From a phage, in sequence record PZ445429.1: 64,000 bases of DNA; one strand, written 5' to 3'. A model generated the notes under the pieces. It ran no database searches and was not told the DNA's origin. It saw nothing but the letters and a program-made list of their open reading frames with translations. The position numbers were made by a program, and so were the translations under genes. Positions 32,215-49,461 of the stretch are shown here, piece after piece (positions within the stretch are counted from its first letter, which is position 1; each line of letters starts with the position of its first letter).

Positions 32215-32268
32215 TAGACCGTTTTTAAAACAAATTCAAATCTCAAACTTCATATAAGGAAGCAAATA

Positions 32269-32907
32269 ATGACTACTCGTATCTCTAAAACTCGTGCTCT
32301 GGCAACTATCAAGTCTCTGGAAGCTAAAATCCGTAAAGCTACTGAACAACAGCTTTTGATTGCTGTTGGTGAAGGTAAAGACAAGAATCAAGTTGTCGTT
32401 GGTGCTGCAATCGAAGTAGATGCTCTGTCTACTCGTATTAAAACTGATTTCCAGTCTCTGCTGGATATGATGACCCAGCGTGATCATCTGAAAGCAGCGC
32501 TGATCAAGAGCAATGCTGAAACTGTTGTAGAGATCGGTTCCCGCTCTATGACTGTTGCGGAAGCAATCGAAGCTAAGCGTTCTATGGAACTCAAAGCTCA
32601 GTTGCTGGCTAACATGCGTAAGCAGTTCCATGCTGCTACTGTTAAGTTTAACACTCAAAAGGCTCAGTTTGATGCCAAGTATGAGCGTTTGCAGGATACC
32701 ATGGCTACCCGTGACAAGAAGACTTCCGAGGATGAAGTTAAGATGCAGCTTAACCTGCTGGAACTCAAGAACACTCCGTTCCTGATCGATCCGCTGGAGC
32801 TGGAAAAGCTGATCAAGCAACACGACGAAGAGTACCAGGACTTTGCAACCAACGTTGACTTTGTTCTGTCTGAGTCCAACGCCTCTACTTTTATCGAAGT
32901 AGAGTAA
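32269..32907 (+). CDS. hypothetical protein
   Basis: 212-aa ORF, E. coli-like codon usage, RBS AAGGAAG. Confidence 0.6.
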   Translation: MTTRISKTRALATIKSLEAKIRKATEQQLLIAVGEGKDKNQVVVGAAIEVDALSTRIKTDFQSLLDMMTQRDHLKAALIKSNAETVVEIGSRSMTVAEAIEAKRSMELKAQLLANMRKQFHAATVKFNTQKAQFDAKYERLQDTMATRDKKTSEDEVKMQLNLLELKNTPFLIDPLELEKLIKQHDEEYQDFATNVDFVLSESNASTFIEVE

Positions 32908-33291
32908 TAATTTAAAAGACTAGTAAATCGGTAGACGAAAGCCCAAGCATCTTACCTCGCAGCAGCGGTTGAAATACGAGGTTAAATAAGACCGCTGACC
33001 ATACTATAAAGTATAATCTATTGGAGATTATGTTTATTACATCAGACATTTAATCTGACACGTAAAAACAAAAGGTCGTTGGTAGTACCAACACAACTTC
33101 AAAGATCAACGCTCAAGTATGAAAGCTGAAAAGTTAAAAGCACTCAAACTTCTAACCTTCTAAAGCTAAAAGATGCAAAGTATTCGTTGATGATTCAAAC
33201 CCTAGATCAAAGGTACATGGCTCATAAGATATGGCCTGTGGCGCCTCTAGGCTGTTTATCGGTTTACTAGTCTCTCAATTTAAAAATGTAT

Positions 33292-33350: not shown

Positions 33351-33668
33351 ATGATTTTTCATATTCTGATTGATGATGTGCGTAACCTTCATGGAATGGA
33401 CATTATCATTCGAACCCCCGAAGCCGCTGTTGAGTTTCTGAATAAAACCGATACCACCGGACATTTCATTTATATGGATAACGATCTGGCTGTAGATGGT
33501 ATGGAAGGTTATCAAATTCTTCGATTACTCCTAGAATTTGGTCAGAGACCCAAGAAAGTGGTACTAGTAACCTCGAACCCAGTAGCTAAAGAGACCATGC
33601 GTAATGATCTCTTAGACGAAGGGTATCAAGAAAGCCCTAATCGTATTGAGTACGATTGGCCGGAGTAA
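33351..33668 (+). CDS. stand-alone CheY-like receiver-domain protein
   Basis: 105 aa; HILIDDV, FIYMDNDLAVDGMEGYQILRLL, VVLVTS mirror receiver-domain motifs. Confidence 0.45.
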   Translation: MIFHILIDDVRNLHGMDIIIRTPEAAVEFLNKTDTTGHFIYMDNDLAVDGMEGYQILRLLLEFGQRPKKVVLVTSNPVAKETMRNDLLDEGYQESPNRIEYDWPE

Positions 33669-34848: not shown

Positions 34849-35331
34849 ATGAAAAGGAAAGAATACCCTACTAAAGAAATACTTGAAAAATATTTTGTAG
34901 CTGATCCTGATAATGGGATACTATATAGGAAAACAAAGAAAGGTTTGAAAGAGTGTTGTGCCAATAATAAGAAATCACATCCAGATGTGGGATTTCAGGG
35001 CGACACCTATCAACTGCATGTCTTATTATTTATTATGTACTATGGATATAGGCCTGAAGAAGTAGATCATAAGGATACTAATCCTAGAAATAATAGGAAA
35101 AATAATCTAAGGGACGCCTCTAGATCGCAAAATAATGCGAATAGAAACCAACAATGCAATAATACTTCTGGGTACAAAGGAGTAAGTTGGGAAGGCTCTT
35201 CCTGGAGATACCAAGTAAGACATGAAGGAAAAAATTACAGTAAAAGAGGGTTTAAAACTGCGGAAGAGGCTTTCGAGGCCTCTAAGATATTAAGAGAATC
35301 CTTACATAAAGAATTTACTAACTTTGGTTAG
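34849..35331 (+). CDS. HNH homing endonuclease
   Basis: 160 aa; HNH core VDHKDTNPRNNRKNNLRDASRSQNNANR; paralog of 24914-25432; ATG 6 nt after promoter -10. Confidence 0.7.
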   Translation: MKRKEYPTKEILEKYFVADPDNGILYRKTKKGLKECCANNKKSHPDVGFQGDTYQLHVLLFIMYYGYRPEEVDHKDTNPRNNRKNNLRDASRSQNNANRNQQCNNTSGYKGVSWEGSSWRYQVRHEGKNYSKRGFKTAEEAFEASKILRESLHKEFTNFG

Positions 35332-35959
35332 TAATAGTGGGGTGCCGAAACCACTTATGTAACAACACTGCCGTCCTAGTATAATAGGTATTATTAGGGC
35401 TTCACCGCCTGAAGATGTGGGTTCGAGTCCCACGGTCGGAAAGAGTTGGATAACTGGTGCTTCTAATGGCGAAGCAATCGCAGGCAGTTGCGCACTGCCA
35501 AAACCACGCGGTAGTTGGTTCCAGGCTAACCAACCACTCTTGAAAAGTATATACTATGGTTTTGCTTGTTCAAGAAGCTTCGCATCGAAAATCGGAGGTG
35601 CGATTTTATCCGACCGCGTGGAGGACGTCTCTCCGTTAAGTGACGAAAAGTGGGACGATTCAGGTAGAGCTGGATATGGAACACCTATACATATGCGGAG
35701 TGCGCACAAAGCATATTGCGGTGGTACTAAACGAAATTAGGAGTCATGACCTGCACAAGTTTAGTATGTCATAACCGATGTACATTCAGTACAAAAACCA
35801 CTGAAGCTAAGATAGATAGTCACCTTGACTTAAACTGGAAGATATTGTCTGACGGAAGGGCTGCAGAGCTTAATCTGAGGGGGCTGACCCTACCTACCGT
35901 CGGGTATCTTTAAGAGCTTTTATAAGAGTTCTTAAAAATACCTAACAAAAGGAATCAAT
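35332..35959 (+). ncRNA. ORF-poor GC-rich structured region downstream of an HNH gene
   Basis: ~630 nt; perfect T-arm-like hairpin GTGGG-TTCGAGT-CCCAC at 35417-35433 without matching acceptor; only a doubtful GTG-start ORF. Confidence 0.3.
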
Positions 35960-43703: not shown

Positions 43704-43778
43704 GCACCTTTAGCTGAGATGGATTAGCGCTTGCCTGAAGAGCTTGAGAGGTTGGATCGTTACCAACGGGGTGCACCA
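43704..43778 (+). tRNA. tRNA-Phe-like (GAA)
   Basis: Acceptor GCACCTT/GGGGTGC, D-stem GCTG/TAGC, loop CTGAAGA; two U-U mismatches in anticodon stem, non-canonical T-loop ATCGTTA. Confidence 0.5.
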
Positions 43779-45915: not shown

Positions 45916-46173
45916 CAAAATCTTTGTAGGTCGCGTCACTTATAGTGGGACTACAGGGTAAACAAGGCGATGAGTTTCCGGCCGGTTCTAGTCGCTGAAA
46001 ATCCTCCCGACCAGGTAGGTGTAGGTAAACGAAAGTTTACTTATTGAGTAGGTTCCGATAGATCGGCGGGTCTATTCTGGCGTTTAAGAGAAGTCTCGCA
46101 AACTTCTTTGTCAGCCGTGGGGCTTGAACCCTCCAGGTGGCCTACGCAATAAGTAAATTTATTAAAAATTCAT
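45916..46173 (+). ncRNA. ORF-free structured region (candidate small RNA)
   Basis: ~255 nt, GC-richer than surroundings, hairpins such as GTAAAC-GAAA-GTTTAC; no ORF of 60 aa or more. Confidence 0.25.
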
Positions 46174-47797: not shown

Positions 47798-48037
47798 ATT
47801 TATATAAATTGATGAGGAGAAATCCTCATCAAAGTTCACTAAGGTATTAGCTCGACCCAGGACTGGCTGCCAAAAAGCACGATCCCTACGACTCGGGAGA
47901 AGTTCTAGATTAGTCCACTAGATTCAGCGGCAACTGAATAGTGTATCGGGTTTGTGAAGAGCGGTTATCCTCTACTGGCTAATGTCTGAGGGTAATACGC
48001 ACACCGAGCTAATAGCCTTAGTAAACTTAAAGATTTT
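47798..48037 (+). ncRNA. promoter-driven 240-nt leader upstream of tRNA-Ala (candidate small RNA or processed spacer)
   Basis: N25-type promoter at 47769-47797, then hairpin TGATGAGGA-GAAAT-CCTCATCA and 220 nt without an ORF. Confidence 0.3.
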
Positions 48038-48996: not shown

Positions 48997-49384
48997 CAAC
49001 TAGTATTCTTGAAGTATGCCGGAATCGGTAGACGGGGCTTCCTAAAGGGCGTAAGGGGAACATCCACTCCTCATAAGATACCCGAAAACGAGGCTGAGAT
49101 AAATGGTCTATCTCATGAAGGTTCAAGTCCTTCTGCTTCTTGATATTCAATGGCTCAAAGTGTAACGGTGCTATTTGATGTTCTTAGTAAGACTTTCCCG
49201 ACATGCGTTCGGGAGTAAGCTGCTAAGGCTAGAGTAGAAGAGTTTCGGAGAGCCGCCACAATTGAGTATTACTAGAGAGCATTCGCAAGAAAGAATCAGG
49301 AGAAAGACCTGTGCGCAGAATGACTAACTTTGGTACCTTAGACGGCCAAATGGAGGACTGATCATCCCCTAATAGTATTCAATT
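48997..49384 (+). ncRNA. ORF-free tRNA-like region
   Basis: ~390 nt; tRNA D-arm-like GAATCGGTAGACG at 49022-49034 and T-arm GAAGG-TTCAAGT-CCTTC at 49117-49133 but no canonical cloverleaf. Confidence 0.3.
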
Positions 49385-49461
49385 GTGGCTATATCATAAT
49401 TGGTTAATGATCCTGATTGTGAATCAGGCCTATGTGGATTCGAATTCCACTAGCCACCCCA
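49385..49461 (+). tRNA. tRNA-His (GTG)
   Basis: Acceptor GTGGCTA/TAGCCAC, anticodon arm CCTGA-TTGTGAA-TCAGG, C73, CCA. Confidence 0.8.

What the first reader, a model, noticed from the sequence alone, without database searches (positions are those of the whole stretch)
48997..49384. Second ORF-free region with tRNA D-arm and T-arm fragments; D-arm motif recurs at 32925
This ~390-nt region contains GAATCGGTAGACG (49022-49034), the conserved D-arm of tRNA-Leu-type genes, and a T-arm GAAGG-TTCAAGT-CCTTC (49117-49133), but they cannot be joined into a canonical cloverleaf. The same AATCGGTAGACG motif occurs at 32925-32937 in another ORF-free region (32908-33291). This suggests decayed tRNA genes or tRNA-derived regulatory RNAs.
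Basis: seen in the sequence. Interest (0 to 1): 0.5.

Follow-up and report, generated by a model that had tools for sequence, protein, structure and literature searches.

The report
T5-type stable tRNA-like RNA array
The "broken tRNA" stretch is a row of three small folded non-coding RNAs already annotated in phage T5 (function still unknown), and the second region with the same motif is a separate, larger folded RNA that is in no RNA family library I could search.

Summary
The window is a T5-like phage (Demerecviridae). The sequence observations are correct. The interpretation, decayed tRNA genes, is not.

Region 48997-49384 matches the stretch that GenBank AY692264 (phage T5) annotates as three misc_RNAs: RNA1, RNAI and RNAIII.
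- RNA1 homologue, 49010-49141. The D-arm and T-arm do join. They form a Leu-type class II cloverleaf in which the anticodon stem-loop is replaced by a 58-nt rod. There is no anticodon and no encoded CCA. On 14 sequences from three Demerecviridae lineages, 99.6% of cells pair and 14 of 33 pairs show compensatory changes. The loops are invariant.
- RNAI homologue, 49152-49258. It is 107 nt and ends in GCCA.
- Slot-C RNA, 49259-49384. It has a 15-bp closing stem. Its interior differs from T5 RNAIII.

All three are maintained structures, not pseudogenes. Their function is unknown. My inference is that RNA1 acts as a tRNA-shaped decoy or ligand.

In region 32908-33291 the 12-mer is not a D-arm. It is the 5' strand of a 21-bp closing helix of a ~357-nt RNA. 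That RNA is 98% identical to T5. Its structure is conserved in T5-like, rV5-like and metagenomic phages and in one Bacillota genome. It always lies downstream of a ~210-aa protein, and tRNA genes were seen nearby in most lineages. It has no Rfam match.

The parts
49010..49141 (+). RNA1 homologue: a tRNA-Leu-derived, class II tRNA-like RNA. Numbered as tRNA positions 1-73. There is a U.U mismatch at 1-72 and no encoded CCA.
   Evidence: 82% identical to the T5 misc_RNA 'RNA1'. Covariation on 14 sequences. The single-sequence MFE gives the same fold. CM score 176 bits.
49011..49016 (+). Acceptor stem, 5' strand. It pairs with 49134-49139.
   Evidence: 6 pairs, 4 with compensatory changes, 100% of cells paired.
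49019..49035 (+). D arm: CCG / GAAUCGGUAGA / CGG.
   Evidence: Invariant in all 14 sequences. The same D-loop type is seen in phage tRNA-Leu genes.
49037..49094 (+). Extended 'anticodon' arm. It has three helices: 49037-41/49090-94, 49047-49/49081-83 and 49055-59/49068-72. They are separated by internal loops. No anticodon loop is present.
   Evidence: 8 of the 13 pairs show compensatory changes.
49060..49067 (+). Apical loop ACAUCCAC, invariant in all 14 sequences.
   Evidence: Invariant columns G54-C65 of alignment A3.
49096..49114 (+). Long variable arm: GAGAUA / AAUGGUC / UAUCUC. The loop is invariant.
49117..49133 (+). T arm: GAAGG / UUCAAGU / CCUUC.
49152..49258 (+). RNAI homologue, 107 nt. 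It has a 5-bp terminal stem followed by G-CCA.
   Evidence: 91% identical to the T5 misc_RNA 'RNAI'. The consensus fold has 21 pairs, 7 with compensatory changes.
49259..49384 (+). Slot-C RNA. It is closed by a ~15-bp stem (AAUUGAGUAUUACUA / UAAUAGUAUUCAAUU). It sits where T5 has RNAIII, but its interior is different.
   Evidence: It is 98% identical to Citrobacter phage YZU-L1 over the full 119-nt query. Only a ~31-34-nt 3' segment, the one holding GGNCUGAUCANCC, matches Enterobacter and Pectobacterium phages at ~80%.
49385..49461 (+). tRNA-His. It abuts slot C, and its G-1 is the last base of the CAATTG junction.
32917..33273 (+). 'R1' RNA: a separate ~357-nt structured RNA.
   Evidence: 98% identical to T5. 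At least 92.6% identical in 436 records. MFE z-score -6.0. Structure conserved in 10 lineages.
32917..32937 (+). R1 closing helix, 5' strand. It contains the 12-mer at 32926-32937 and pairs with 33253-33273. The helix is 21 bp with 4 G.U pairs.
   Evidence: The helix sequence differs between lineages and is shorter on the minus strand.
32954..32997 (+). R1 H-type pseudoknot: A5' 32954-58, B5' 32963-69, A3' 32978-82, B3' 32991-97.
   Evidence: All 10 core pairs covary across 9 lineages. The segments were extracted by hand. RNAalifold finds helix A on its own.
33219..33236 (+). R1 3'-domain hairpin GGCU-CAUAAGAUAU-GGCC, with a conserved loop.
32269..32907 (+). Gene for a 212-aa, largely helical protein (phrog_1491, mislabelled 'tail fiber'). 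It always lies immediately upstream of the R1-type RNA.

Best explanation
Region 48997-49384 is a tandem array of three small structured non-coding RNAs. They lie inside the early tRNA operon of a T5-like phage. The first two are homologues of T5 RNA1 and RNAI. The third is a variant occupying the RNAIII slot.

Shown:
- Each unit brings its own 5' and 3' ends together in a helix.
- RNA1 is a tRNA-Leu-derived cloverleaf. Its acceptor stem, D arm, long variable arm and T arm are intact. Its anticodon stem-loop is replaced by a 58-nt three-helix rod.
- RNA1 has no anticodon and no encoded CCA. RNAI does end in GCCA.
- RNA1's helices covary while its loops are invariant.

Inferred:
- No + strand promoter-like site was found inside the region, so the three are probably transcribed with the flanking ORF and tRNA-His.
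- They are probably cut out by the host tRNA-maturation enzymes: RNase P at each 5' end, then exonuclease trimming at the 3' ends.
- They accumulate as stable RNAs.
- RNA1 cannot decode. It most likely acts in trans as a tRNA-shaped ligand or decoy. It would use the tRNA elbow and acceptor/T minihelix to engage a tRNA-binding partner, and the invariant apical and variable-arm loops for specificity. The partner could be a host defence nuclease, a tRNA-handling enzyme, the ribosome, or a conserved phage protein.
For: - Identity: AY692264 annotates RNA1 (144 nt), RNAI (107 nt) and RNAIII (106 nt) between T5p061 and tRNA-His. The window aligns to this stretch with the same order and boundaries.
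- RNA1 structure: 33 pairs in 7 helices, 99.6% of cells paired, 14 pairs with double changes. Controls with one partner slid by a few columns give 0-4. The MFE of the single sequence gives the same cloverleaf.
- tRNA-Leu ancestry: the RNA1 covariance model scores 145-176 bits on one locus per genome. Its next-best hits, at 34-42 bits, are the annotated tRNA-Leu genes, ahead of all other tRNAs.
- Not a decoder: 48 nt lie inside the anticodon stem and no anticodon-loop sequence is conserved. None of the 14 homologues encodes CCA, whereas 26 of 28 tRNAs in the window do.
- Selection on loops: the apical loop, the variable-arm loop and most of the D and T loops are invariant, although the lineages are only ~77-82% identical overall.
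- Distribution: the region matches 498 phage records, including Klebsiella Sugarlandvirus and Pectobacterium Hongcheonvirus.
- RNAI: 7 of 21 consensus pairs are compensatory across two interior types.
- Slot C: a 14-17-bp closing stem is present in six different sequence types.
- No + strand promoter-like site lies inside the region.
Against: - There are no expression or end-mapping data for this phage. The T5 annotations are the only sign that these are real RNAs, and I could not retrieve the primary 1980s papers.
- Single-sequence folding energies are unremarkable: z = -1.0, -1.4 and -1.2, and 0.08 for the whole region.
- The decoy function is pure inference. No partner is identified.
- No complementary target was found above chance in the window.
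- The 14 RNA1 sequences fall into a few clades, so the compensatory cell counts overstate the number of independent events.
Confidence: 0.55

Rival explanations
1. The three elements are only cis-acting processing and stability punctuation. On this reading they are tRNA-like handles that let RNase P and exonucleases separate the upstream mRNA from the tRNAs, and the excised RNAs have no function of their own.
For: - Each unit is bounded by an end-pairing helix, and each abuts the next unit or tRNA-His.
- The interiors of RNAI and slot C are freely swapped between phages while the ends are kept.
- The tRNA region of T5 tolerates deletions. The st0 mutant is viable (record description).
Against: RNase P needs only the acceptor/T minihelix. 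That does not explain a 58-nt rod with three covarying helices and an invariant 8-nt apical loop, or an invariant variable-arm loop, kept across three Demerecviridae lineages.
Confidence: 0.2
2. The RNAs are base-pairing (antisense) regulators that use the invariant loops to target phage or host mRNAs.
For: The loops are invariant and single-stranded. The apical sequence CAUCCACUCCU loosely resembles the 3' end of 16S rRNA (my recollection, not tested).
Against: Complements of the apical region and of the variable-arm loop occur in the 64-kb window no more often than in shuffles. The host genome and the rest of the phage genome were not searched.
Confidence: 0.1
3. One reading: these are decayed tRNA pseudogenes with no function.
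For: tRNA finders fail on the region. D- and T-arm motifs are present, but not at tRNA spacing.
Against: All 7 helices pair in 99.6% of cells, and 14 pairs show compensatory changes. Module A is conserved at 92% even in Klebsiella phages, where the surrounding sequence does not align. T5 annotates the elements as RNA genes.
Confidence: 0.03
4. RNA1 is a functional tRNA-Leu that carries a short intron, which is removed to give a decoding tRNA.
For: The insertion lies inside the anticodon stem. In the window its 5' end reads CUAAAGG, which resembles an anticodon loop.
Against: - That heptamer is not conserved. T5 has CGAAUAG and Pectobacterium has CUAACGA.
- The insert forms a continuous covarying rod, not a bulge-helix-bulge motif or a group I fold.
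- No Rfam intron family hits the region.
- No CCA is encoded.
- The discriminator would be U rather than the A73 that E. coli LeuRS requires (my recollection).
Confidence: 0.03
5. The shared 12-mer shows that R1 and RNA1 have a common origin, or a common recognition site such as a homing-endonuclease target.
For: The exact 12-mer appears twice against 0.14 expected. Homing-endonuclease genes sit next to R1 in some relatives and throughout the tRNA region.
Against: - There is no similarity beyond the 12-mer.
- In R1 the 12-mer is a helix strand and its sequence is not kept in other lineages. My1 has UAAGGUAGUUCUG there.
- T5 RNA1 itself has AATTGG, not AATCGG.
- The RNA1 model does not hit R1.
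Confidence: 0.1

Closest known systems
Phage T5 stable RNAs RNA1, RNAI and RNAIII (misc_RNA features of GenBank AY692264)
   Same: Same genomic slot, between the T5p061 homologue and tRNA-His. Same order. 82% (RNA1) and 91% (RNAI) identity. Same lengths. RNAI has the same GCCA end.
   Different: The third unit is not alignable to T5 RNAIII except at the junction stems. It belongs to another sequence type, shared in full with Citrobacter phage YZU-L1. Enterobacter and Pectobacterium phages share only a short 3' segment.
Class II tRNA-Leu
   Same: Acceptor stem, U8, a 3-bp D stem with the GAAUCGGUAGA loop, a long variable arm, and a T arm with UUCAAGU. tRNA-Leu genes are the best secondary hits of the RNA1 model.
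   Different: A 58-nt rod replaces the 17-nt anticodon stem-loop. There is no anticodon, no encoded CCA, and a U.U mismatch at 1-72. It scores below every tRNA model.
Phage T4 species 1 and species 2 RNAs (rnaC, rnaD), stable RNAs of unknown function in the T4 tRNA cluster (my recollection, not tested)
   Same: Small stable RNAs co-transcribed and co-processed with phage tRNAs. Function unknown.
   Different: Homology is not claimed.
GOLLD and ROOL RNAs. These are the comparison for R1, not for R2.
   Same: Large, elaborately folded RNAs with pseudoknots. They are encoded by phages and prophages, often next to tRNA islands, and their function is unknown (PMC12286853). R1 is a ~320-360-nt pseudoknotted RNA, and tRNA genes were seen near it in most of the phage lineages checked.
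   Different: No Rfam GOLLD or ROOL hit in any of 8 lineages. R1 is smaller, at about 350 nt against 580-800 nt. R1 is always coupled to an upstream ~210-aa protein gene.

Membership tests
T5 RNA1 (tRNA-like stable RNA) | Sequence homology and synteny with the AY692264 rna1 feature | tested here: met
   82% identity over 146 nt. Same position after the T5p061 homologue and before RNAI.
T5 RNA1 (tRNA-like stable RNA) | Shared secondary structure: cloverleaf plus extended anticodon arm | tested here: met
   99.6% of cells paired, and 14 of 33 pairs compensatory.
T5 RNA1 (tRNA-like stable RNA) | Accumulates as a discrete stable RNA in infected cells | not testable with these tools
   No expression data are available. 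Only the T5 annotation supports it.
T5 RNAI | 107-nt RNA with a GGCUC...GAGCC terminal stem and a GCCA 3' end, homologous to the AY692264 rnaI feature | tested here: met
   107 nt, 91% identity, same termini.
T5 RNAIII | Sequence homology to the AY692264 rnaIII feature | tested here: not met
   Only the junction stems align. BLAST of T5 RNAIII finds no match in the window's slot C. It is a positional analogue only.
Canonical tRNA (Rfam RF00005 / ARAGORN) | Cloverleaf with a 5-bp anticodon stem and a 7-nt anticodon loop | tested here: not met
   No hit at gathering score or at E<=10. 48 nt are enclosed by the anticodon stem.
Canonical tRNA (Rfam RF00005 / ARAGORN) | 3' CCA, encoded as in the phage's other tRNAs | tested here: not met
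   The sequence after the acceptor stem is UUGAUA. 26 of 28 tRNAs in the window encode CCA. Post-transcriptional CCA addition cannot be tested here.
tmRNA | tRNA-Ala-like domain plus a tag reading frame | tested here: not met
   ARAGORN finds no tmRNA. There is no Rfam tmRNA hit.
tRNA gene interrupted by a group I intron | Group I intron core inside the anticodon loop | tested here: not met
   The insert is only about 41 nt. No Intron_gpI hit at E<=10.
YrlA / bacterial Y RNA-like tRNA mimics | Match to Rfam RF02553 | tested here: not met
   No hit in the region at E<=10.
GOLLD / ROOL / RNase P RNA (considered for R1) | Match to the Rfam models | tested here: not met
   No hit at E<=10 in the window's R1, nor at E<=1 in 7 homologous loci.

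The most novel reading that the evidence does not exclude
The other ORF-free region named in the finding (R1, 32917-33273) may be a founding member of an undescribed class of ornate RNA. The class would be ~320-360 nt long and built from four parts: a 16-22-bp closing helix, a 5' H-type pseudoknot, an A-rich central stretch with repeated AAAG motifs, and a conserved 3' domain.

It is always encoded immediately downstream of a ~210-aa helical protein of unknown function, and tRNA genes lie nearby in most lineages checked. It occurs in several unrelated phage families, including the model phage T5, and in at least one Bacillota genome. The fixed pairing with the protein gene suggests a dedicated RNA-protein particle.
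Probability: 0.5. Interest if true: 0.75.

Novelty: new member of a known kind. Interest (0 to 1): 0.5.

Why it matters
T5-like phages are model systems and common therapy candidates. Phage tRNA regions are now known to counter tRNA-targeting defences: T5 tRNAs neutralise PARIS and a retron (PMC11464382, PMC10644984).

The stable RNAs between the tRNAs have had no assigned function. Most modern genome records leave them unannotated, or call spurious small ORFs over them.

Two results make the question testable:
- RNA1 is a selectively maintained tRNA-Leu mimic that cannot decode.
- Its neighbours are exchangeable cassettes with fixed ends.

Separately, R1 offers a compact, strongly conserved RNA-plus-protein pair in a tractable phage. 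It may be a smaller counterpart of the GOLLD and ROOL enigma.

Tried and rejected
- Rfam at relaxed thresholds on both regions and on 7 homologous loci: only noise and flanking tRNAs.
- Two loose gapped motif scans of IMG/VR were swamped by chance hits. The exact 16-mer scan returned 28 T5-like loci plus three chance matches in coding sequence (L137, L141, L163) that I first mistook for distant relatives.
- BLAST of a 'restored' mini-tRNA against E. coli genomes: no match, because the query is too short for a 28-Gb database.
- R1 as a replication origin: the cumulative GC-skew minimum is at ~22-24 kb, not at R1.
- R1 as coding sequence: T5p083 in AY692264 lies on the opposite strand. That frame is broken in the window, and the + strand ORF is the conserved one.
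- R1 as RNase P RNA or tmRNA: some motif resemblance by eye, but no model hit.
- Fold of the 212-aa partner protein: a confident model (pLDDT 89), but only a weak match to 3kdq, a protein of unknown function.
- RNAduplex end-pairing scan: uninterpretable. I replaced it with a contiguous-helix scan.
- Literature searches for the original T5 stable-RNA papers and for T5 transcriptomes found nothing usable in the held library.

Full report
**What the window is.** BLAST of both regions hits hundreds of Salmonella, Escherichia and Klebsiella T5-like phages of the Demerecviridae. ARAGORN finds 28 tRNA genes between 35369 and 51027, all on the + strand. Rfam agrees and adds one more at 43704-43775.

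**Checking the observation.**
- The 12-mer AATCGGTAGACG occurs exactly twice, at 49023 and at 32926. Shuffles predict 0.14 matches even with one mismatch allowed.
- No tRNA, tmRNA or other Rfam family is called in either region, even at E<=10.
- The two regions share nothing beyond the 12-mer.

**Region 48997-49384 is a known RNA gene array.** The T5 record AY692264 annotates the homologous gap, between T5p061 and tRNA-His, as three misc_RNAs. These are RNA1 (144 nt), RNAI (107 nt) and RNAIII (106 nt). The window aligns to this stretch in three modules:

| Module | Window coordinates | Relation to T5 |
|---|---|---|
| A | 49005-49150 | 82% identical to RNA1 |
| B | 49151-49265 | 91% identical to RNAI |
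| C | 49266-49384 | Alignable to RNAIII only at the junctions |

Conservation across 498 phage records is equally modular. Module A is the deepest. Its core, 49017-49133, runs exactly from the D-arm to the T-arm. It is 89-92% identical even in Klebsiella Sugarlandvirus phages, where nothing else in the region aligns.

**RNA1 is a tRNA-Leu mimic with a rod in place of the anticodon arm.** Read against tRNA numbering, 49010-49141 contains:
- a 6-bp acceptor stem, with a U.U mismatch at 1-72;
- U8;
- a 3-bp D stem with a Leu-type GAAUCGGUAGA loop;
- an 'anticodon' stem, GCUUC/GAGGC, that encloses 48 nt rather than 7;
- a 6-bp long variable arm;
- a standard T arm.

The enclosed 48 nt form two further helices capped by an 8-nt loop, ACAUCCAC.

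I tested this structure on 14 homologues. They came from Tequintavirus, Epseptimavirus, a divergent Enterobacter phage, Sugarlandvirus, Hongcheonvirus and IMG/VR contigs. The result:
- 99.6% of 454 cells form standard pairs.
- 14 of 33 pairs carry compensatory double changes.
- Controls with one partner slid by a few columns give 0-4 such pairs.

Folding the single window sequence gives the same cloverleaf on its own.

A covariance model built from the alignment finds exactly one full copy per genome, at 145-176 bits. Its next-best hits, at 34-42 bits, are the annotated tRNA-Leu genes of four phages, ahead of tRNA-Ser, tRNA-Tyr and all others. The element is therefore tRNA-Leu-derived.

RNA1 cannot decode.
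- The internal-loop sequences on either side of the rod are not conserved (CUAAA, CGAAU, CUAAC), so there is no anticodon.
- None of the 14 homologues encodes CCA, while 26 of 28 tRNAs in the window do.

The apical loop, the variable-arm loop and most of the D and T loops are invariant while the helices covary. That is the signature of a functional RNA with specific contacts, not of a pseudogene.

**RNAI and slot C.** RNAI (49152-49258) keeps its termini in every phage: GGCUCAAAG-GUAACGGUGC at the 5' end and GAGUUUC-GAGAGCC-G-CCA at the 3' end. Its interior comes in at least two sequence types of similar shape. RNAalifold predicts 21 pairs, 7 with compensatory changes.

Slot C (49259-49384) is closed by a 14-17-bp stem built on the CAATTGA...TCAATTG junctions. 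That stem is present in all six sequence types found in this slot. Their lengths are 68, 111, 122, 126, 138 and 149 nt. In the Pectobacterium phage the stem has a compensatory change, CAAGTG/CACTTG.

The window's slot-C type is shared in full with Citrobacter phage YZU-L1 (98%). Only a ~31-34-nt 3' segment, containing GGNCUGAUCANCC, matches the Enterobacter and Pectobacterium phages at about 80%. Some phages carry an extra ~118-nt unit between RNA1 and RNAI.

The array therefore behaves as a set of exchangeable cassettes with fixed ends.

**How it most likely works.**

Shown:
- three end-paired structured units;
- one of them a non-decoding tRNA mimic;
- no internal + strand promoter-like site;
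- direct abutment on tRNA-His.

Inferred:
- The units are co-transcribed with the early tRNA operon.
- Host RNase P and 3' exonucleases excise them.
- They accumulate as stable RNAs.

For RNA1, I think the best reading is a tRNA-shaped decoy or ligand. It combines an intact tRNA elbow and acceptor/T minihelix with an invariant, rod-mounted loop and an invariant variable-arm loop. This fits the recent picture of phage tRNA regions as counter-defence loci (PMC11464382, PMC10644984).

That step is not demonstrated. No partner is known. Complements of the invariant loops are not enriched in the window.

A purely cis punctuation role is the main rival. It does not explain the conserved rod and loops.

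**The second region is a different thing.** In R1 the 12-mer is the 5' strand of a 21-bp helix. AGACUAGUAAAUCGGUAGACG (32917-32937) pairs with UGUUUAUCGGUUUACUAGUCU (33253-33273). The helix has four G.U pairs, so it is complete only in + strand RNA.

R1 is 98% identical between the window and T5, although the flanks are about 87%. It is at least 92.6% identical in 436 records, almost all unannotated. It folds with z = -6.0.

The upstream + strand ORF (32269-32907, 212 aa, phrog_1491) is real and widespread. The minus-strand CDS T5p083 in AY692264 is therefore probably spurious.

Homologues of this protein are followed by an unannotated gap in every lineage I fetched. The gap is 343-437 nt, or longer where tRNA genes follow within it. 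The lineages were:
- Pectobacterium phages My1 and DU_PP_V;
- Vibrio phage ABurr;
- Erwinia phage Hena1 (Vequintavirinae);
- Pseudomonas phage PE09;
- Cronobacter phage 009;
- four metagenomic or genomic contigs, one of them from Solibacillus silvestris.

Nine of these gaps share the R1 architecture. PE09 and Cronobacter are unclear. The shared features are:
- a long closing helix of different sequence in each lineage, with 16-22 contiguous bp and 2-4 G.U pairs in seven lineages; shuffled sequences reach at most 13-15, and the minus strand gives shorter helices in six of the seven;
- a 5' H-type pseudoknot, AUCUUACCUC...GAGGUUAAA, interleaved with a second helix. All 10 core pairs covary. Those segments were extracted by hand, so that count is biased towards pairing;
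- an A-rich centre with repeated AAAG motifs;
- a 3' domain with a CAUAAGAUAU hairpin loop and a CCUCYRGGCUG motif.

An unbiased MAFFT plus RNAalifold run on 10 lineages predicts 34 pairs, 24 with compensatory changes.

Intrinsic terminator-like hairpins follow the RNA on the + strand in three lineages, read directly from the sequences. tRNA genes flank the module in most lineages. Homing-endonuclease genes sit directly 3' of it in two.

No Rfam family matches in any lineage. The partner protein models confidently (pLDDT 89) as long helices with short terminal strands, but it resembles nothing of known function.

The nearest analogues are GOLLD and ROOL. These are large phage RNAs often found near tRNA islands, of unknown function (PMC12286853). 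I could not check whether R1 is listed in uncurated catalogues such as PMC10690425.

It is wrong on decay and on the second site.

The flagged region itself is a new member of a known, though functionally unexplained, kind. Its third unit is a different sequence type from T5 RNAIII.

The more novel item is R1. The evidence supports it as a conserved large RNA paired with a protein gene. It deserves its own follow-up.

Noticed in passing
window 32917-33273 (with 32269-32907); L164:2166-2522, L167:16195-16552(-), L287:1894-2244, L289:2215-2528, L290:2196-2506, L291:2153-2472, L292:2132-2411, L165:2131-2436: A ~320-360-nt structured RNA lies downstream of a ~210-aa helical protein (phrog_1491) in several phage families and in one Solibacillus genome. 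It has a closing helix, a pseudoknot, an A-rich AAAG-repeat centre and a conserved 3' domain. It has no Rfam match.
   Followed up: yes
window 33095-33190: The central part of R1 is A-rich with repeated (U/C/G)AAAG motifs, for example the 24-nt direct repeat at 33122 and 33162. Every R1-like RNA examined has the same character there. It could be a multi-site protein-binding or Hfq-like (ARN)n tract.
   Followed up: partly
window 33351-33668: The first gene after R1 and its promoter encodes a 105-aa cREC_REC domain protein (PF20274, E 7.5e-15). This domain is a predicted cyclic-phosphate-processing enzyme linked to RNA repair and NAD+ conflict systems (PMC7824862). In Cronobacter phage 009 a PNK/phosphatase gene lies near the R1-like gap (L288:2569-3006).
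   Followed up: partly
L001 (AY692264) 35159-35956, equivalent to window 32251-33048 minus strand: The T5 CDS T5p083 is annotated on the strand opposite to the conserved 212-aa ORF and runs into R1. Its frame is broken in the window. It is probably a mis-annotation.
   Followed up: partly
L132:2084-2596 (Salmonella phage bobsandoy); L291:2491-3177: A homing-endonuclease gene (HNH type in bobsandoy, NUMOD3-containing in L291) is inserted immediately 3' of the R1-type RNA in two unrelated lineages. This suggests the conserved RNA gene is a homing target.
   Followed up: no
window ~47847-48018 and ~46046-46148: By synteny with AY692264, these ORF-free stretches are homologues of two further T5 misc_RNAs, RNA2H and RNAIV (82% and 92% blocks). 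T5 'rna2' was not aligned in the window.
   Followed up: no
window 43704-43775: Rfam calls a tRNA here (33.4 bits, above gathering score, ends GCACCA). ARAGORN did not report it.
   Followed up: no
window 35369-35442; L287:2326-2433: ARAGORN labels a UCA-anticodon tRNA as 'tRNA-SeC'. It has no encoded CCA and scores 33 bits on Rfam tRNA. Erwinia phage Hena1 has a tRNA-sup(tca) right after its R1-like RNA. These may be opal-suppressor-type tRNAs associated with the module.
   Followed up: no
L130:1040-1158 (mar003J3) and L129:840-960 (UTK0008): Some Epseptimaviruses carry an extra ~118-nt non-coding unit between RNA1 and RNAI. This shows that the array gains and loses cassettes.
   Followed up: no
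L166:19289-20601 (Klebsiella phage K30lambda2.2): A 1.3-kb unannotated, GC-rich gap lies after the endolysin gene. It contains a T-arm-like GCAGGTTCAAGTCCTGC and many hairpins. It may be another cluster of non-coding RNAs in Sugarlandvirus.
   Followed up: no
window 49002-49009 and 49373-49380: An 8-nt direct repeat, TAGTATTC, flanks the whole three-RNA array. It was not evaluated beyond noting it, and it may be chance.
   Followed up: no
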